DNA of 64,000 bases, taken from IMG/VR virus record IMGVR_UViG_3300027986_000009; one strand, 5' to 3'. Both the position numbers and the translations under genes were made by a program. This stretch comes from an uncultured virus (IMG/VR IMGVR_UViG_3300027986_000009) (taxonomy: Duplodnaviria > Heunggongvirae > Uroviricota > Caudoviricetes). Positions 15,085 through 29,875 of this stretch are shown here, piece after piece (position 1 is the first letter of the stretch; every line of letters begins with the position of its first letter). The notes beneath the pieces are model-generated. The model searched no databases, was not told the DNA's origin, and was given only the letters and a program-made list of their open reading frames with translations.

Positions 15085-15894
15085 TTATTTCTTTCGCAAG
15101 ACGAGCCAGAGAATCGTTGCGCCTGCGACCACGGCTCCGCCTACGATCCAGGGCGTTGAGCTAGACGCTATAGACGAGGGTGCAGGCGTCGGAACAGGTG
15201 CCGGCGTAGTCACCGGCGTCGGTGGTGAAGGGGGCGGAGAAAGTGGCCCCGGCGGTGCCGCAGCCGCCATCCCCACGCAAGGCGTCGGCACCTGCGTCAG
15301 GTTTCCCATCAGGCTCTGGAGCGCGGTCGCGGTCGGTGAGTCGTAAGCCCCTTGGGTGTAGCTCGGGTCCAGGCTTGCCGCGCCCGGGCTCATCACCATC
15401 GCGTTCTGAAGCATCTGGGTGGGACCCGAGAGGCTATCGGTGCAGCCGACGATGTTGTACGAGCGAAACCAATTGAAGATGGCGTAGCTCAGGTTTCCCG
15501 GGATGCCCGACGGAGGCGATGCGCCGATCGAGTACAAGATCTGCTGCATCGTGTTGTAGAGGTACTGCCCGAGCGTGACCATGATGGCGACGTCGGTGGG
15601 CGCGCCTGACAAATTGTAATTCGCGATCGTCGCTACCGACGAATTCACATTCTGCTGCAAATCGGACGGAATCGTGGGACCGACGGAGCTGATCGCGGTC
15701 ATGGCCGCGATGGCGTTGTTAGTTACGTTGGCCTTGATGAAATTGGGATCGCCCGCGTTGAGCAGGTTGCCCATCTGCTGATCGAGCACCTGCTGCGCCT
15801 GCGCGGTCGTCGTCGCACCCGCAGCAATGAGCGGAGCCGCCATCCAAGTCGTGCGGACCCGGAGAGGCTTACCTTTCGAGGATCGCCAGCCCAT
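15085..15894 (-). CDS. Membrane-anchored virion protein, PG-binding-like segment
   Basis: [12 protein letters not shown], Pro linker, C-terminal TM plus RKK. Confidence 0.7.
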
Positions 15895-15898
15895 GGGC

Positions 15899-16519
15899 TT
15901 ATCGATGGGTCATGCGCCGATGAACAGACCTCAGATGCCTCTTGCCGCCGCCCTTGGCGTAATAGGCCCACCCGGCGATGCCGGCTGCCGCGACGAGCGC
16001 GCCACCGATGATCCAGGGGTTCATGCTGGACGTCGTCACGGTGGTCGTCTGACTCGGGTTCACCGGCGTAGGAGACGGCGAAGGCTTGGGAGGCGTCACC
16101 CCACCCCCACCTCCGGCCGCTCCGCAGACGGATGCGGGCGCGTTGCCGCCGATGGCGGCGTGCTGGTTGCCGTTGGTGTCCGTCCACGAATAGTTGAGCG
16201 CGTTGGCGAGAGCGCCAGCTGTCTGCGGACCGTACTTTCCGTCGACCGTGATGGGGTTTGACTGGCCGGGTGTGCTCGCGTTCCAGGCCGCCTGAAAGTT
16301 CTGCGTGATGCCGTCCTGGACGCAGGCCGAGGGCGGGTTCGCCTGAAGCGTCTGCGCCTGGTTCTGCATCGTCAGATCGGCGTTGTCGCTGCTCACGTCG
16401 CCGAGGCCGATCCGATTGCTTCGCACCGGCATCGTCCGCGCAAGCTTTGCGTGGCTCACGGGCGCGTAGCCCATGTTGTAGCGCCGACCGCGCGGCGTGA
16501 TGATGGAGTGCGAATTCAT
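15899..16519 (-). CDS. Membrane-anchored protein with peptidoglycan-binding domain
   Basis: NFQAAWN...ITVDGKYGPQTAGAL; C-terminal TM and basic tail; start at ATGA overlap. Confidence 0.8.
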   Translation of the reverse strand: MNSHSIITPRGRRYNMGYAPVSHAKLARTMPVRSNRIGLGDVSSDNADLTMQNQAQTLQANPPSACVQDGITQNFQAAWNASTPGQSNPITVDGKYGPQTAGALANALNYSWTDTNGNQHAAIGGNAPASVCGAAGGGGGVTPPKPSPSPTPVNPSQTTTVTTSSMNPWIIGGALVAAAGIAGWAYYAKGGGKRHLRSVHRRMTHR

Positions 16520-16965
16520 GGCTTCCTCGGATGGGGGTTGTGCGCAGGAAGACGTCGGCGCCGCGCTTCGCCAGCATTCAGGGGATTGTGCTTCTTTTTC
16601 CGACTCTCCCCTACGATACCACTTCCCTTGATGAGGTACCCGCCTACCCCTCCAATGGCCAGTGCACCGAGGGCGACGAGAGCGGCAACTTTTGCGTCCA
16701 CCATGAGGGACGCCGGCTGGGCCGAGGGAGCTGGAGACGGCGCGGGCTGAGGTTGCTGCTGGCAGGCGAGGAGCTGCTGCTCGAGGGTCGCCACCTGAGG
16801 ACCGGCCTGGGTGATGTCGGCCGCGAGCGCGACGGCTGCCGTCTGGATCTGCTGGATCCCCGAGGCGTCCAGACTGCCTGCTGCCGCCGCTGCGGTGAGC
16901 GCCGTGAGGATGCTCTGGATCTGGGTCTGCGCGTCGGCGAGTGTGCTGTCGAGCGGGGTTGCCAT
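16516..16965 (-). CDS. Coiled-coil membrane protein
   Basis: A/Q-rich helix, TM, basic tail. Confidence 0.75.
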   Translation of the reverse strand: MATPLDSTLADAQTQIQSILTALTAAAAAGSLDASGIQQIQTAAVALAADITQAGPQVATLEQQLLACQQQPQPAPSPAPSAQPASLMVDAKVAALVALGALAIGGVGGYLIKGSGIVGESRKKKHNPLNAGEARRRRLPAHNPHPRKP

Positions 16966-27244: not shown

Positions 27245-28340
27245 TTTTTTCCCAAGCGATGTCGAGCACCTTCGTCACGGGCTTGCCGACCACGTAGGAA
27301 GCCACGGTCGCGACAACGAGCGCGCCGACGCTGAGGCCCGCCGCGGTTCCTGCTGCCGCCTTGACCGCGGTCGTTCCTGCCGATGACGTCGGCATCGCCG
27401 CCTGCGCTGCCTGGACGTTCGCTTGAACGATCGGCGCCAGGTTGATGGTGTGTGTTGCCCTCTCTGCCTCGCTCAACAAATTGCCAACGTTGACACTCAC
27501 AAACCGAGCCGGCGACGGGTACTGCTCGTTGGGCCACTGCGCATAGATGGCGGCGAAGCTTTCGTTTTGGCTGAGCGCGTTGCCCATCGGGGGAGGCGCG
27601 GGAGCCTGCGAGAGATCTTCTCCCCACGGGGTCCAGCTCGCGGGCCAGAACGCATAGTAGAGATTTGGGTCTAAGTTACCAGTATATGAATTTTGTACGT
27701 TGCTCCACTGCTGGATCATGGGCATCATCGGCAGAAGAGGAGGAACGTAGAAATCCTGAGCGGGGCCCGCGTGGGTCTGGTTCCACATGTTGACCGCCGC
27801 ATCAACAATGACCGACGGTGGGACCGCGCTTTTGCACGAAAGCGCGCTGGCCGCGTTCACGAGCAGCGCCCCGTTGACAAACTGAGCGAACGATCCGGAC
27901 ATCTTCGCCAAGAATGGTTGCGCAAAATTGGCCGCAAGCACGTCCGGCGTCGGTACGGGCCCGTTGACGACGCACGGCGGAGAGTCGCAGTCCGATTGAG
28001 AGATGCCGACGTCGTGGAAGAACTTTGCGGTTGGGCATGCGAGCGGCTGCGCGATCTGATAGAGCGTCTCGAGAGCTCCCCCGAGGATGGGGCCCACGCC
28101 GGGGATGAGCGATAGACCGCCCGCGATGACGGCCACCATCGCTTGCTGATCGGCCTGGCTCGTGATGTCGAAGCCATTCTCGGCGAGCTGTCCGGCAGCC
28201 GAGATCCCCGATGCCACACGCCCCTGCGTCACGTCGACTCCGGTCGCCTGCTGGATGTAAGCGGCACCGTCAGCGGACGCGGACGTTTTGATGTTGCTCG
28301 TGAGCTGGGTGGTGAAGCTTGCGGTGTCGCCCAGTCTCAT
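27228..28340 (-). CDS. Membrane-anchored virion protein
   Basis: MRLGD start, LSLIPGVGPILG helix, C-terminal TM. Confidence 0.75.
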   Translation of the reverse strand: MRLGDTASFTTQLTSNIKTSASADGAAYIQQATGVDVTQGRVASGISAAGQLAENGFDITSQADQQAMVAVIAGGLSLIPGVGPILGGALETLYQIAQPLACPTAKFFHDVGISQSDCDSPPCVVNGPVPTPDVLAANFAQPFLAKMSGSFAQFVNGALLVNAASALSCKSAVPPSVIVDAAVNMWNQTHAGPAQDFYVPPLLPMMPMIQQWSNVQNSYTGNLDPNLYYAFWPASWTPWGEDLSQAPAPPPMGNALSQNESFAAIYAQWPNEQYPSPARFVSVNVGNLLSEAERATHTINLAPIVQANVQAAQAAMPTSSAGTTAVKAAAGTAAGLSVGALVVATVASYVVGKPVTKVLDIAWEKIKKAF

Positions 28341-28501
28341 GAGGGCTACTGTAGCAGAGCTCTTGTCAGTCGTCGCCGCTGACCGCGGCGCGCGCCAGAA
28401 ACATCATGCCGCCAAGCATGCAGAGGTAGGGGTGATCGAAGAGGAACGCCCACACGGCAAAGACTCCGGCCGCGATGTATTGCAGATAGGCGTACGCCTT
28501 C

Positions 28502-29875
28502 TCACGTTCCAGGGCCCCAGCCTCCACCCTGATTACCCTGCGGCGGCGCTTGCGGCGGTCCCGCGACGAGTTGCGGCGCCGCAGAACTCGGAACTGGTCC
28601 CTTGGTGCGGCTCATGAATTCGCGCCCGAGATCGAGAGCCTTGTCAGCGAGACCCACCACCTTGTCGCGCACATCGGGCTTATTCATCATCTCGGCGACG
28701 ATGCCGTGCAAGGAGGGGCCGCCGGTATCCTTGTCGAGGGCCCACGTGAAATTGTCCCCGATGGGAACTCGTTGCCACGGAAGCATGTCTTCCGGCTTCG
28801 GCGTCTCGTCTGGCTTCGGTGGCTCCTCTTCTTCGGGATCCTTGAATGACTCGGCGACACGCGCGCCGGTTGCGCGGAAGGTGCGCCCGAGGTTGGCGAA
28901 CTGCTCGAGGACGCCGAGCGCTTCGGTAAGCTGACCCATAGCGGCCTGACCGACAGCACCGGGAGCCGGTGGTGGAGGAGCCGCAACCGCCGGAGGAGCC
29001 CCCATATGCGTTGGTTTCTGAATCACCCCCCACTCAACGAGCTTCTGAAGCACCGCCATCGCCGTCTGGTCAGGTCCGGATGGGGCTGGGGCCGGTGCGG
29101 GCGGAGCGCCAACGAAAGCGGGCATCGGAGTGGGTGCGGGCGTCTCGGGCTTGGTGATCACCTGCTGAAGCTGGCCCGAGAGGTAACCGATCTGCTGTTG
29201 CAGGCTGCTGATGAGGGCCACGACGCCGGGGTCTGTGCCCGGAGGGAGAGCGGCAAGAGGAGGAGGCGCCGCGACGGGAGCCGGTGGAGGCGGAGCAGGC
29301 GCCGGTTGCTGGGGCGGAGGACCCCAGCCCCACGGAGGCATCTGCGGCATCATCTGTGGTTGCTGCTGACCCATCCACGGAGGTACTTGCGGAGCGCCCA
29401 TCATCCCGCCGTAGGGACTGGGCATCATCGCCGCGATCTCGGAGTGGCTCGGCAGCGAAAGATAGCCCTGTGTCAGCGTTCCACCCTTCGCCTTGATGTA
29501 AAACCGAACCTGATATTTGGCGGGTCCGCCTCCGGATGCCTTGTGAAAATTGTTGATGATGTATTGACGTAGAGCGTTACCACCGCTCATGACATCGCCC
29601 GGCTGGGGCGCCGCAGATGGACCGTTGAAGCTACCGAGACTCTGTGGAGTGGGGGCAACCCGAGAGATATGGATTCCGTAACCGTCGGCTCCCCTACCAG
29701 GGAGCTCGTATTTGAGCATCCCATCCTCGGTCGCGTCGACCTCTAGAATTTCATTCCAGAGCAGATCTGCCTCACCGCCAGCGTTCTCCCACGAACGCTT
29801 CTCCTTGACGACTTTGCCGTTTTTCCGAGGAGGCGACGAAGCCGGCGGAGGCGGAGCGTTTTCTTGGTCGCTCAT
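28502..29875 (-). CDS. Pro/Gln-rich protein with conserved N-domain and coiled coil (scaffold-like)
   Basis: N-domain paralogous to 31173..31976. Confidence 0.75.
   Translation of the reverse strand: MSDQENAPPPPASSPPRKNGKVVKEKRSWENAGGEADLLWNEILEVDATEDGMLKYELPGRGADGYGIHISRVAPTPQSLGSFNGPSAAPQPGDVMSGGNALRQYIINNFHKASGGGPAKYQVRFYIKAKGGTLTQGYLSLPSHSEIAAMMPSPYGGMMGAPQVPPWMGQQQPQMMPQMPPWGWGPPPQQPAPAPPPPAPVAAPPPLAALPPGTDPGVVALISSLQQQIGYLSGQLQQVITKPETPAPTPMPAFVGAPPAPAPAPSGPDQTAMAVLQKLVEWGVIQKPTHMGAPPAVAAPPPPAPGAVGQAAMGQLTEALGVLEQFANLGRTFRATGARVAESFKDPEEEEPPKPDETPKPEDMLPWQRVPIGDNFTWALDKDTGGPSLHGIVAEMMNKPDVRDKVVGLADKALDLGREFMSRTKGPVPSSAAPQLVAGPPQAPPQGNQGGGWGPGT

What the first reader, a model, noticed from the sequence alone, without database searches (positions are those of the whole stretch)
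15085..29875. Virion module of an apparently tailless, internal-membrane large virus
Seen: I recognise no terminase, portal, HK97 capsid, tail tube or tape measure in 64 kb. Instead there are three adjacent beta-rich proteins (425, 209 and 292 aa, with a terminator after the first), about 12 proteins with TM anchors and basic tails, PG-binding domains, a TM-anchored transglycosylase and a TM-anchored transglutaminase-like enzyme. Known: PRD1/Bam35-like and sphaerolipovirus-like viruses have this kind of membrane-protein-rich virion, but small genomes. Inference: a Varidnaviria-like virus larger than 64 kb with caudovirus-like replication genes, possibly an undescribed lineage. No packaging ATPase is visible in the window.
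Basis: partly seen in the sequence, partly recalled or inferred. Interest (0 to 1): 0.85.

Follow-up and report, generated by a model that had tools for sequence, protein, structure and literature searches.

The report
Tailless jelly-roll membrane virus, soil
This stretch looks like the particle-building genes of an undescribed group of large soil bacterial viruses that have no tail and no known DNA-packaging motor, and that seem to build a membrane-containing shell from jelly-roll proteins.

Summary
None of the 201 ORFs of at least 105 aa in the window matches a terminase, portal, HK97 capsid, tail tube or tape measure. The only 'tail' matches are collagen-repeat and fibre-tip domains.

The 425-, 209- and 292-aa genes form a trio found in 35 of 36 related loci. 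Five IMG/VR relatives of 96-117 kb, rated 100% complete and one with terminal repeats, also lack terminase, portal and HK97 capsid. They have no conserved FtsK/HerA/A32-type ATPase either.

AlphaFold models:

Thirteen of the 23 module ORFs have membrane-type segments. These include tail-anchored SLT and transglutaminase-like enzymes. A membrane-anchored protein with about 50 Arg+Lys per 100 residues lies upstream of the 425-aa gene in 20 of 20 loci inspected.

Best reading: the virion module of a new tailless, membrane-containing, jelly-roll virus lineage, possibly packaging DNA by condensation. Membership of Varidnaviria is not shown, because a double jelly roll is unproven and the ATPase is absent. 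Everything here is computational.

The parts
10783..15081 (-). 1432-aa collagen-repeat fibre protein with a non-collagen C-terminal part of about 500 aa. Lies directly downstream of the module, outside the given coordinates. Candidate host-recognition fibre.
   Evidence: Pfam Collagen E 2.4e-100 in 8 stretches. PHROG 'tail fibre' families match through the Gly-X-Y repeats. The long ORFs in other frames (12440-15346 +, 13340-15040 -) are repeat shadows.
15085..15894 (-). 269-aa membrane protein: signal-like N-terminus, C-terminal hydrophobic segment at residues 248-266, ends in RKK.
   Evidence: Translation; hydropathy scan; no Pfam or PHROG family.
15899..16519 (-). About 206-aa tail-anchored protein with a weak peptidoglycan-binding-like motif, a C-terminal Gly/Ala-rich hydrophobic segment and a basic tail. 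Probable start is the ATG at 16519, behind a GAGGA.
   Evidence: Start candidates. PG_binding_3 is only sub-threshold, E 0.09. The hydrophobic segment was read by eye and falls below the threshold. The G003 protein at the same position has PG_binding_1, E 3e-12.
16516..16965 (-). 149-aa tail-anchored protein: hydrophobic segment at 94-112, then a 37-residue tail with 11 Arg/Lys.
16968..17600 (-). About 210-aa protein with an N-terminal hydrophobic anchor.
   Evidence: Translation; start candidates; no family.
17600..18478 (-). 292-aa conserved protein, third of the trio. Fold unknown. Candidate vertex or minor capsid protein.
   Evidence: Found in 35 of 36 related loci, always after the 209-aa homologue. 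36 homologues at E<=0.001. No Pfam, PHROG or PDB-sequence match. Not folded.
18504..19133 (-). 209-aa single jelly-roll protein: core at residues 36-172, flanked by N- and C-terminal helices. Candidate penton or second capsid protein.
19171..19186 (-). GC-rich hairpin followed by a T-rich tract, between the 425- and 209-aa genes. Possible attenuating terminator after the most highly biased gene.
   Evidence: The count of such sites in the region is not above the shuffles (8 against 9.6).
19231..20508 (-). 425-aa candidate major capsid protein: basic, disordered N-terminal arm, a beta-sandwich of about 20 strands, C-terminal helices. It has the strongest codon bias in the module and its homologue is among the best-conserved genes of the block.
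20580..22109 (-). 509-aa polybasic membrane protein: 19.4% Arg, a peak of 55 Arg+Lys per 100 residues from residue 143, then hydrophobic segments (338-356 and neighbours). Candidate genome-condensing core protein anchored in the virion membrane.
   Evidence: Composition and hydropathy. Its C-terminal part is conserved in 11 loci. An ORF of the same design (42-57 Arg+Lys per 100) lies directly upstream of the 425-aa homologue in 20 of 20 loci inspected.
22176..22841 (+). 221-aa membrane protein on the opposite strand, made of two copies of a unit: hydrophobic segment, basic stretch, second hydrophobic stretch, Cys-x-x-Cys.
   Evidence: Self-alignment of the two halves scores 207 against 37 +/- 7.5 for shuffles. 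Hydropathy.
22838..23131 (-). About 97-aa DUF6527 protein.
   Evidence: Pfam DUF6527 E 2.9e-9; phrog_3362 E 1.4e-25. Start candidates.
23128..23592 (-). 154-aa protein of unknown function, conserved in a few relatives.
   Evidence: tblastn hits in 4 loci.
23831..24256 (-). 141-aa protein with two hydrophobic segments (27-45 and 52-70).
24269..24730 (-). About 153-aa tail-anchored protein with a basic tail. Its start overlaps the stop of the upstream gene.
   Evidence: Start candidates. Hydrophobic segment read by eye, below the threshold. Homologue in G003 at 103395-103943 with a C-terminal segment.
24727..25899 (-). 390-aa transglutaminase-core (papain-like) enzyme with a C-terminal anchor at 358-376 and an RRRR tail. 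Candidate maturation protease or cell-wall peptidase carried in the particle.
   Evidence: Pfam Transglut_core E 1.4e-7, 32.1 bits against a cut-off of 23. Hydropathy. Conserved in 30 of 36 loci.
25932..26192 (-). About 86-aa protein with an N-terminal hydrophobic anchor.
26201..26614 (-). 137-aa lytic transglycosylase with a C-terminal anchor at 109-127 and an Arg-rich tail.
   Evidence: Pfam SLT_3 E 3.1e-27 and SLT E 1e-8. Hydropathy.
26520..26960 (+). Small multi-pass membrane protein on the + strand. The real start is probably inside the ORF.
   Evidence: Two hydrophobic segments. The competing minus-strand ORF 26624-27193 has no feature of a real protein.
26957..27244 (+). 95-aa Cys-rich protein, zinc-ribbon-like by eye.
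   Evidence: Translation. No Pfam family.
27228..28340 (-). 370-aa protein with hydrophobic segments at 68-86 and 333-351 and a Lys-rich tail.
   Evidence: No family.
28502..29875 (-). 457-aa protein with a long Pro/Gln-rich middle. It matches the G003 679-aa protein in position and composition. Candidate scaffold or matrix protein (inference).
   Evidence: Translation. ATG at 29875 behind AAGGA. G003 counterpart. No sequence similarity detected between the two.
32185..33264 (-). 359-aa protein with a C-terminal RadC-like JAB domain. Lies upstream of the module, outside the given coordinates, but travels with it in relatives.
   Evidence: Pfam RadC E 1.8e-22. Hits in 19 loci near the trio. G003 counterpart RadC E 7.7e-22.

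Best explanation
Window 15085-29875, with the fibre gene at 10783-15081 just downstream, is the particle-building module of an uncultured soil bacterial virus. The virus belongs to a diverse, undescribed lineage with genomes of about 60-125 kb. The lineage builds a tailless, membrane-containing particle.

SHOWN
- The module is an almost unbroken run of minus-strand genes, and several of the likely start codons overlap or abut the stop of the gene before.
- Its core is a trio found across the related loci (425, 209 and 292 aa).
- The 209-aa protein models as a single jelly roll.
- The 425-aa protein models as a larger beta-sandwich with a basic N-terminal arm.
- More than half of the remaining genes encode proteins with membrane-type segments, two of them enzymes.
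- A polybasic membrane protein precedes the 425-aa gene in all 20 loci inspected.
- Relatives rated complete have neither tailed-phage hallmarks nor a conserved packaging ATPase.

INFERRED
- The 425-aa protein forms the bulk of an outer shell. The 209-aa protein closes the vertices or pairs with it, as the two jelly-roll proteins do in SPV1 or the sphaerolipoviruses.
- The tail-anchored proteins sit in a host-derived lipid layer under the shell.
- The SLT enzyme and the peptidoglycan-binding proteins breach the cell wall at entry.
- The transglutaminase-like enzyme matures virion proteins or cuts wall peptides.
- The collagen-like proteins are vertex fibres.
- The genome is condensed by the arginine-rich membrane protein and enclosed during assembly, rather than pumped into a preformed shell.
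For: ABSENCE OF TAILED-PHAGE HALLMARKS
- 0 of 201 window ORFs match terminase, portal, HK97 capsid, tube, sheath or tape measure.
- Relative G003 is 116,275 bp with an 87-bp terminal repeat. 113 + 7 + 143 of its ORFs were scanned and none matches.
- Six-frame HMM searches of G001-G005, all rated 100% complete: Terminase_6N 0 of 5, TerL_ATPase 0 of 5, Terminase_6C 0 of 5 over the cut-off, Phage_portal 0 of 5, Phage_capsid 0 of 5. The controls gave hits.

NO CONSERVED PACKAGING ATPASE
- FtsK_SpoIIIE 0 of 5 over the cut-off, Pox_A32 0 of 5, DUF87 1 of 5.
- The single DUF87 hit is a 196-aa ORF. It loses protein-like sequence after about 85 residues and has no homologue in the other genomes.
- No Walker-A ORF lies in the conserved block.
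- The other P-loop ORFs are helicases, a transposase and a Prim-Pol.

FOLDS
- 425-aa model: the weak Foldseek and VIA lists are dominated by jelly-roll capsid proteins, namely papillomavirus L1, SPV1, HHIV-2, HCIV-1, PRD1 P3, STIV, faustovirus, IBDV VP2 and hepevirus.
- The nearest named ESM-Atlas cluster is PRD1 P3, at 0.76. This is a lead only.

SIGNS OF A MAJOR STRUCTURAL PROTEIN
- The 425-aa gene has the highest GC3 in the module (0.91).
- Its homologue and that of the 209-aa gene are the best-conserved genes of the shared block.
- It has a basic N-terminal arm.

CONSERVATION AND CONTEXT
- The trio is present in 35 of 36 loci.
- A roughly 26-kb block is shared by four genomes whose replication genes mostly differ.
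- Membrane module.
- Polybasic protein.
- Virus context: integrase, phage-type replication genes, and fibre proteins with PHROG fibre-tip domains.
Against: - No particle, lipid or protein data exist. Everything rests on sequence and predicted structure.
- The jelly roll of the 209-aa protein matches cellular proteins (PHM, nucleoplasmin, GOLD) as well as capsid proteins.
- The 292-aa protein and the other conserved proteins of unknown function were not folded. One of them could still have an HK97, portal or ATPase fold.
- 13.4 kb of the window's own contig was not seen. The relatives rated complete share only about 30-36% identity with the window in the trio.
- CheckV completeness is an estimate, and only one relative has terminal repeats.
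- No known bacterial virus of this size is tailless (recalled), so the prior is low.
Confidence: 0.6

Rival explanations
1. The element is a virus with a membrane, but not an icosahedral jelly-roll shell. It would be an enveloped, pleomorphic or otherwise non-icosahedral particle. In it the arginine-rich protein and the DNA form a core wrapped by a membrane, and the 425/209/292 proteins are surface spikes or a matrix layer rather than a capsid.
For: - No packaging ATPase of any known kind in relatives rated complete. This fits particles that form around the genome.
- Many type-I-like and tail-anchored proteins have sizeable outer domains, including wall-binding and wall-cutting ones.
- The jelly-roll matches are too weak to prove shell formation.
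Against: - The 425-aa protein has the features of a shell protein: a basic N-terminal arm, the strongest codon bias, and conservation among the highest in the block.
- It has no membrane anchor or signal peptide.
- The paired large and small jelly-roll genes match the layout of SPV1 and the sphaerolipoviruses. For SPV1 I saw passages of PMC8459092; the sphaerolipovirus layout is recalled.
Confidence: 0.15
2. It is a tailed phage (Caudoviricetes) after all. Its terminase, portal, HK97 capsid and tail genes would be too divergent for Pfam and PHROGs. For the window's own virus they could also lie on the unseen 13.4 kb. The block would then be an accessory envelope, lysis or superinfection module.
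For: - The replication genes are of phage type, and the fibre proteins carry PHROG 'tail fibre' tip domains (phrog_9017, E 3e-14).
- One relative has direct terminal repeats.
- Several conserved proteins were not folded.
- Weak stray hits exist: Terminase_6C at 14.3 bits in G005, tape-measure PHROG at E 1e-4, and Phage_tube_2 at E 0.027 inside the polybasic protein.
Against: - The large terminase subunit is, as I recall, the most reliably detected phage gene. It is missing from five genomes rated complete by four Pfam models in six frames, and from 263 ORFs of G003 by full Pfam or PHROG scans.
- No unexplained P-loop ORF is left.
- All the stray hits are below threshold. The Terminase_6C hit lies on the strand opposite the glycosyltransferase gene.
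- The only block shared by genomes with different replication modules is this one. A phage would be expected to conserve its head genes.
Confidence: 0.1
3. It is not a virion module. It would be a cell-envelope module of an integrative mobile element or plasmid-like replicon, for example surface fibres, wall remodelling or exclusion, that virus-detection pipelines label as viral.
For: - An integrase is present.
- No hallmark gene of any virus realm was identified by sequence.
- The enzymes (SLT, transglutaminase-like), LysM and PG-binding domains, glycosyltransferases and collagen-like proteins also occur in cellular envelope systems.
Against: - No conjugation or secretion ATPase, relaxase or partition ATPase was found.
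- The weak structural neighbours of the 425-aa model are overwhelmingly virus capsid proteins.
- A protamine-like protein with about 50% Arg+Lys next to the jelly-roll genes in 20 of 20 loci has no obvious role in a cell-envelope system.
- Genome sizes cluster, and one genome has terminal repeats.
- Only 2 short fragments were found among 185,579 species genomes. This argues against a common chromosomal island.
Confidence: 0.1

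Closest known systems
Portogloboviridae (Sulfolobus polyhedral virus 1, SPV1), archaeal
   Same: - According to the ICTV profile (passages of PMC8459092), SPV1 has an outer shell of two single jelly-roll proteins. VP4 forms the hexameric capsomers and VP10 the pentameric ones.
[quoted passage not shown]
- Here there are two adjacent jelly-roll-type proteins, many membrane proteins and a polybasic core candidate.
- No packaging ATPase is detectable here. 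That SPV1 also lacks one is recalled; the profile does not mention any.
   Different: - Different host: SPV1 infects a hyperthermophilic archaeon, whereas this is probably a bacterium with a cell wall.
- SPV1's genome is about 20 kb, against 77 kb or more here.
- No sequence similarity was found.
- The core candidate here is membrane-anchored.
- Collagen-like fibres, SLT and a transglutaminase-like enzyme are present here.
Tectiviridae (PRD1, Bam35) and other Bamfordvirae of bacteria
   Same: - Tailless, with an internal membrane rich in small virus-encoded proteins.
- Wall-degrading enzymes are carried in the particle. A review passage names the PRD1 muramidase P15 (PMC6356626). The membrane-associated transglycosylase P7 is recalled.
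- A collagen-like motif in the PRD1 spike is recalled.
   Different: - Genomes of about 10-18 kb (recalled), against about 60-125 kb.
- A double jelly roll is not demonstrated here.
- PRD1 fills a preformed procapsid with the ATPase P9 (passage of PMC6356626). No such ATPase is conserved here.
- No protein-primed polymerase was found. Replication genes are of tailed-phage type.
Helvetiavirae (Sphaerolipoviridae, Matsushitaviridae: HHIV-2, HCIV-1, SH1, P23-77)
   Same: - Two adjacent capsid genes, one small plain jelly roll and one larger with an added domain (recalled). This parallels 209 aa and 425 aa.
- An internal membrane.
   Different: - Genomes of about 17-31 kb (recalled).
- A conserved packaging ATPase lies next to the capsid genes (recalled), and none is found here.
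- No sequence similarity.
- Hosts are halophilic archaea and Thermus.
Adenovirus core proteins (pVII, mu) and other protamine-like virion proteins
   Same: Arginine-rich proteins that neutralise and compact dsDNA inside a jelly-roll shell, in a virus that also encodes a papain-like maturation protease (recalled). Here the parallels are a protein with about 50% Arg+Lys next to the shell-protein candidates, and a papain-like transglutaminase-core enzyme.
   Different: - No sequence relation was tested or claimed.
- The protein here carries membrane segments.
- Adenoviruses still use a packaging ATPase (recalled).

Membership tests
Caudoviricetes / Duplodnaviria | Large terminase subunit | tested here: not met
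   - 0 of 201 window ORFs.
- Terminase_6N and TerL_ATPase 0 of 5 relatives rated complete. Terminase_6C 0 of 5 over the cut-off, with one 14.3-bit stray.
- 0 of 263 G003 ORFs by Pfam or PHROGs.
- Caveat: 13.4 kb of the window's own contig was not seen.
Caudoviricetes / Duplodnaviria | Portal protein | tested here: not met
   - Phage_portal 0 of 5 in six frames.
- No portal family in the Pfam or PHROG scans of the window or of G003.
- This is sequence level only. Conserved proteins of unknown function were not folded.
Caudoviricetes / Duplodnaviria | HK97-fold major capsid protein | tested here: inconclusive
   - Phage_capsid HMM 0 of 5.
- No HK97 protein appears among the listed fold matches of the 425- or 209-aa models. 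An unlisted fold is not thereby excluded.
- Other conserved proteins were not folded.
Varidnaviria, Bamfordvirae (PRD1-adenovirus lineage) | [quoted passage not shown] | tested here: inconclusive
- Single-jelly-roll targets align to a core spanning model residues about 48-398. This suggests one roll with an inserted domain, but coordinates could not be inspected.
Varidnaviria (both kingdoms) | FtsK/HerA/A32-type genome-packaging ATPase | tested here: not met
   - FtsK_SpoIIIE 0 of 5 over the cut-off, Pox_A32 0 of 5, DUF87 1 of 5.
- The single hit is a non-conserved ORF that degenerates after about 85 residues.
- No Walker-A ORF in the conserved block of four genomes or in the window's module.
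- The abstract of PMC8328091, seen in the listing, says most but not all members share this ATPase.
Varidnaviria, Helvetiavirae (sphaerolipovirus-like) | Two single jelly-roll capsid proteins encoded side by side | tested here: inconclusive
   - The 209-aa protein is a single jelly roll.
- No sequence homology between the two.
- That they form capsomers together was not tested.
Portogloboviridae | Single jelly-roll shell proteins, inner membrane and nucleoprotein core (features from PMC8459092) | tested here: inconclusive
- The membrane-protein module and the polybasic protein fit by analogy.
- No sequence similarity to any PDB chain by profile search.
- Homology to SPV1 VP1 was not tested.
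Membrane-containing virion (any family) | Lipid in the particle | not testable with these tools
   Indirect only: 13 of 23 module ORFs have membrane-type segments (plus reading).

The most novel reading that the evidence does not exclude
These genomes represent a deep, so far unnamed lineage of bacterial viruses, at least class level and possibly outside the existing realms.
- They enclose 60-125 kb of dsDNA without any terminase or FtsK/HerA-type motor.
- A protamine-like protein anchored in a virion membrane condenses the genome.
- A shell of jelly-roll proteins closes around that core.

This would be a bacterial counterpart of archaeal SPV1, several times larger than any known tailless phage.
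Probability: 0.35. Interest if true: 0.92.

Novelty: new variant of a known kind. Interest (0 to 1): 0.82.

Why it matters
As far as I recall, every cultured bacterial virus with a genome above about 35 kb is tailed and uses a terminase. Tailless, membrane-containing phages are small and use an FtsK/HerA-type ATPase.

This lineage is diverse: 247 clusters at 50% identity for its candidate shell protein. It includes five 96-117 kb genomes rated complete that show neither machine.

- If the reading is right, it would break the link between large phage genomes and tails.
- It would add a packaging-by-condensation route to bacterial virology.
- It would give the archaeal portogloboviruses a bacterial analogue, which bears on the origin of jelly-roll capsids.
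- It shows that current hallmark-gene pipelines can hold such genomes without recognising what they are.

The claim is directly testable, because the candidate shell, core and enzyme genes are now named.

Tried and rejected
NO RESULT OR NO INFORMATION
- No whole genome is held for the window.
- Megablast of the module and tblastn of the 425-aa protein against 50,697 GenBank phage records: no match.
- PDB sequence searches with the 425-aa protein and with profiles A1, A2 and A3: nothing meaningful.
- Pfam at E<=10 on all 48 members of A1, and at E<=1 on 24 distant family members: no capsid family.
- hhalign between the three trio families: no paralogy. One search failed internally.
- ESM-Atlas structure rows for both proteins rest on the Atlas's own poor models (pLDDT 0.36 and 0.26) and were ignored.
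- No HK97-fold, portal or terminase structure appeared in any listed fold match. This is recorded as an absence only.
- The window's own contig was not found in JGI metagenome contigs. The second scan gave only a 2.4-kb near-identical fragment and one 47%-identical relative at a contig end.
- Species genomes gave only two short MAG contigs, labelled Binatia and Acidimicrobiales. This is too little to name a host.
- No tRNA and no Rfam family in the window.
- Sequencing runs: one soil run holds the stretch and may be its source. No RNA holder is listed.

CONSIDERED AND SET ASIDE
- The P-loop ORFs of G001, G002 and G005 were suspected as terminases. They turned out to be UvrD-like helicases, a DDE transposase and a Prim-Pol.
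- The G004 HerA-like hit was suspected as the packaging ATPase. It is rejected as a family feature.

LITERATURE
- Four searches found no description of such a lineage.
- One preprint opened on suspicion (10.1101/2025.08.03.668216; abstract and outline only) concerns 4.6-kb marine elements and is unrelated.
- No supplementary files were read.

Full report
WHAT THE WINDOW IS

The window is 64 kb at about 62% G+C, and no whole genome is held for it. I translated all 201 six-frame ORFs of at least 105 aa and scanned them against Pfam and PHROGs. The recognisable genes are those of a temperate virus-like element:
- a tyrosine integrase (4130-5230);
- a replication and recombination block at 34-52 kb, with MT-A70 methylase, Sak4/AAA_24, PD-(D/E)XK nuclease, ParB-like protein, RNase T-type exonuclease, ResIII/SNF2 helicase, HNH, VRR-NUC and a 998-aa DnaB-like protein;
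- sugar-modifying genes;
- several fibre-like proteins, namely collagen repeats at 10783-15081 and 61199-62758, fibre-tip PHROG domains at 57267-58541 and 60793-61197, and a LamG protein at 59225-59968.

No ORF matches a terminase, portal, HK97 capsid, tail tube, sheath or tape measure. The cluster of the 425-aa protein is recorded on a contig of 77,409 bp, so 13.4 kb of the window's own contig was not seen. I could not retrieve it. The DNA is held by a soil metagenome run.

THE MODULE AT 15085-29875

The module is a nearly unbroken series of minus-strand genes. Several of the likely start codons overlap or abut the stop of the gene before, as at 17600, 24730 and 23131. Three small genes lie on the plus strand.

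Of the 23 ORFs I accept between 15085 and 30952, 13 have a membrane-type hydrophobic segment. Ten come from the hydropathy scan. Three Gly/Ala-rich ones fell below its threshold and were read. I set aside the scan's two further hits, inside the 425- and 292-aa proteins, as probable hydrophobic beta strands rather than membrane segments. Seven of the 13 are C-terminal anchors followed by a short Arg/Lys tail.

Two of the anchored proteins are enzymes:
- a 137-aa SLT_3 lytic transglycosylase (E 3e-27);
- a 390-aa transglutaminase-core protein (E 1.4e-7). By eye its Cys, His and Asp positions look intact; the motif is recalled, not tested.

The peptidoglycan-binding claim is weak in the window: PG_binding_3 at E 0.09. 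It is solid at the equivalent place in relative G003, where a 762-aa protein has PG_binding_1 (E 3e-12), a C-terminal anchor and a basic tail, next to a LysM protein.

THE TRIO

The 425-aa protein has at least 208 homologues in public metagenomes. By exhaustive profile search it has 247 representatives of 50%-identity clusters at E<=0.001, 177 at E<=1e-10 and 95 at E<=1e-30, among 1.84 billion. Nearly all full-length members are about 400-470 aa, and none carries a Pfam family.

IMG/VR holds 34 loci with a relative, on contigs up to 127.5 kb. Two short MAG contigs hold it too. In 35 of these 36 loci, homologues of the 209- and 292-aa proteins follow the 425-aa homologue in the same order. The 36th locus ends inside the first gene. 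The three families are not detectably related to each other.

The 425-aa gene has the strongest codon bias of the module (GC3 0.91). Its homologue and that of the 209-aa gene are the best-conserved genes among four relatives (68-69% and 65-72% identity). A hairpin with a T-rich tract follows the 425-aa gene at 19186-19171. The number of such sites in the region is no higher than in shuffles.

FOLDS

With a 48-sequence alignment, AlphaFold2 gives the 425-aa protein pLDDT 82.8 and pTM 0.81. The model has a disordered N-terminal arm (7 Arg/Lys in the first 25 residues), about 20 strands and C-terminal helices.

Foldseek finds nothing at E<=0.001 in the PDB or BFVD. The weak lists are nevertheless almost entirely jelly-roll capsid proteins: papillomavirus L1, SPV1, STIV, PRD1 P3, faustovirus, IBDV VP2, hepevirus, tectivirus GC1 and CRESS viruses.

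VIA-align against 48,161 chains gives:

ARE THE HALLMARK GENES SIMPLY ELSEWHERE?

Five IMG/VR relatives (G001-G005, 96-117 kb) are rated 100% complete, and G003 has direct terminal repeats. I confirmed an 87-bp repeat on its 116,275 bp.

For G003 I scanned:
- 113 ORFs chosen by codon bias, against Pfam and PHROGs;
- 7 corrected ORFs, against Pfam;
- the remaining 143 six-frame ORFs of at least 180 aa, against PHROGs.

None matches a terminase, portal, capsid or tail family. The only exceptions are collagen-driven 'tail fibre' matches, one 'baseplate hub' C-terminal domain match (E 5e-13, 236 aa) and one tape-measure hit at E 1e-4.

Six-frame HMM searches of all five genomes gave:
- Terminase_6N 0 of 5;
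- TerL_ATPase 0 of 5;
- Terminase_6C 0 of 5 over the cut-off (one 14.3-bit stray);
- Phage_portal 0 of 5;
- Phage_capsid 0 of 5.

The control genomes gave hits in every case.

The same holds for the other known motor. FtsK_SpoIIIE gave 0 of 5 over the cut-off, Pox_A32 0 of 5 and DUF87 1 of 5. The single DUF87 hit, in G004, is a 196-aa ORF that stops looking like a protein after about 85 residues. It has no homologue in the other genomes or loci. A Walker-A scan of all ORFs of at least 80 aa found none in the shared block. The P-loop ORFs elsewhere are UvrD-like helicases, a transposase and a Prim-Pol.

What the four fully fetched genomes share with each other is essentially one block of about 26 kb (G003 80-106.5 kb) around the trio, plus a few scattered genes, among them the integrase, the ParB-like protein, a phrog_1915 protein and a large glycosyltransferase. 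The window shares the core of the block. Most of their replication genes differ. A virus's most conserved block is normally its virion module.

THE POLYBASIC PROTEIN

The ORF upstream of the 425-aa gene (20580-22109, 509 aa) is 19.4% Arg. It peaks at 55 Arg+Lys per 100 residues and then has hydrophobic segments. In all 20 of the 34 IMG/VR loci that I inspected, the ORF directly upstream of the 425-aa homologue has the same design: 440-1130 aa with a peak of 42-57 Arg+Lys per 100. In 16 of the 20 it also has at least one hydrophobic segment by the scan. A protamine-like domain tied to a membrane, beside the shell-protein candidates, in genomes with no packaging motor, suggests that the DNA is condensed and enclosed rather than pumped. 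This is inference.

COMPARISON WITH KNOWN VIRUSES

The best analogy is archaeal SPV1. [quoted passage not shown] Its genome is only about 20 kb.

PRD1-type phages share the internal membrane and the particle-borne wall enzymes. They fill a procapsid with ATPase P9 (passage of PMC6356626) and are small (recalled).

Sphaerolipoviruses share the large-plus-small jelly-roll gene pair (recalled), but they keep the ATPase (recalled). Varidnaviria are defined by jelly-roll capsid proteins, and most share a packaging ATPase (abstract of PMC8328091, seen in the listing).

Here the first feature is inconclusive and the second is not met. I therefore do not file the lineage in that realm. It may work like an SPV1-type particle.

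PRIOR KNOWLEDGE

Four full-text searches found no description of such bacterial viruses. No GenBank phage record matches.

Three earlier AI notes of this scan, on other genomes, describe tailless soil viruses of 58-83.5 kb. One of them reports two jelly-roll proteins. All three report a membrane-like arginine-rich core protein, and the note that covers a whole genome reports no recognisable packaging motor. They agree with this reading but are not independent evidence. A look-up by sequence found no look-alike windows.

VERDICT

The main weaknesses are:
- the unfolded conserved proteins;
- the unseen 13.4 kb of the window's own contig;
- the complete lack of physical data.

I put 0.6 on a tailless jelly-roll, membrane-containing virion module. 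The rivals are 0.15 on a membrane virus of another architecture, 0.1 on a very divergent tailed phage and 0.1 on a non-virion envelope module.

Noticed in passing
window 1-400: The left end of the window is a run of 15-base near-repeats. Its translation matches (46% identity) the pentapeptide-repeat protein of relative G003 at 55278-56165 (Pfam Pentapeptide E 1e-46 there).
   Followed up: partly
window 10171-10751 (-): Two small genes just downstream of the collagen fibre gene. One is a KGG stress-repeat protein (Pfam KGG E 2.6e-11). The other is a GroES-like protein (Cpn10 E 2e-4; phrog_3188 co-chaperonin E 3e-7).
   Followed up: no
window 12440-15346 (+) and 13340-15040 (-): Very long ORFs of 968 and 566 aa lie opposite to, or out of frame with, the collagen-repeat gene. 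They are shadows of the Gly-X-Y repeat, not genes. The GC3 filter even prefers a wrong frame here.
   Followed up: partly
window 22176-22841 (+): A plus-strand gene inside the minus-strand module encodes an internally duplicated membrane protein. Each half ends in Cys-x-x-Cys. The self-alignment scores 207 against 37 for shuffles.
   Followed up: yes
window 33541-34002 (-): DUF7768 protein (E 8e-28). It also matches the PHROG family of nucleoside 2-deoxyribosyltransferases (E 7e-22), which may point to nucleotide or DNA-base modification.
   Followed up: no
window 56434-64000: A second fibre or glycan cluster:
- a nucleotide-sugar epimerase;
- a GDSL esterase with a fibre-tip domain and a TIG domain;
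- a LamG protein;
- a second collagen protein.
The window ends inside the C-terminus of a homologue of G003's 1032-aa glycosyltransferase/TPR protein.
   Followed up: partly
G004 110360-110482 (locus L067 3947-4534, -): A HerA/DUF87-like Walker-A region (33.8 bits) lies in a 196-aa ORF that turns into Arg/Gly-rich sequence after about 85 residues. It is either a frameshifted or decayed ATPase gene or an assembly error. No homologue exists in the other relatives.
   Followed up: yes
G003 86662-88947 (locus L039 6662-8947, -): The 762-aa PG_binding_1 protein carries a long His/Pro-rich repeat region. This looks like a possible metal-binding or spacer arm in front of the wall-binding domain and the membrane anchor.
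   Followed up: no
G003 44437-45117 and 8520-9800: The relative rated complete encodes a rhomboid-family membrane protease (E 5e-23) and a subtilase (E 7e-10). Both are unusual cargo for a bacterial virus.
   Followed up: no
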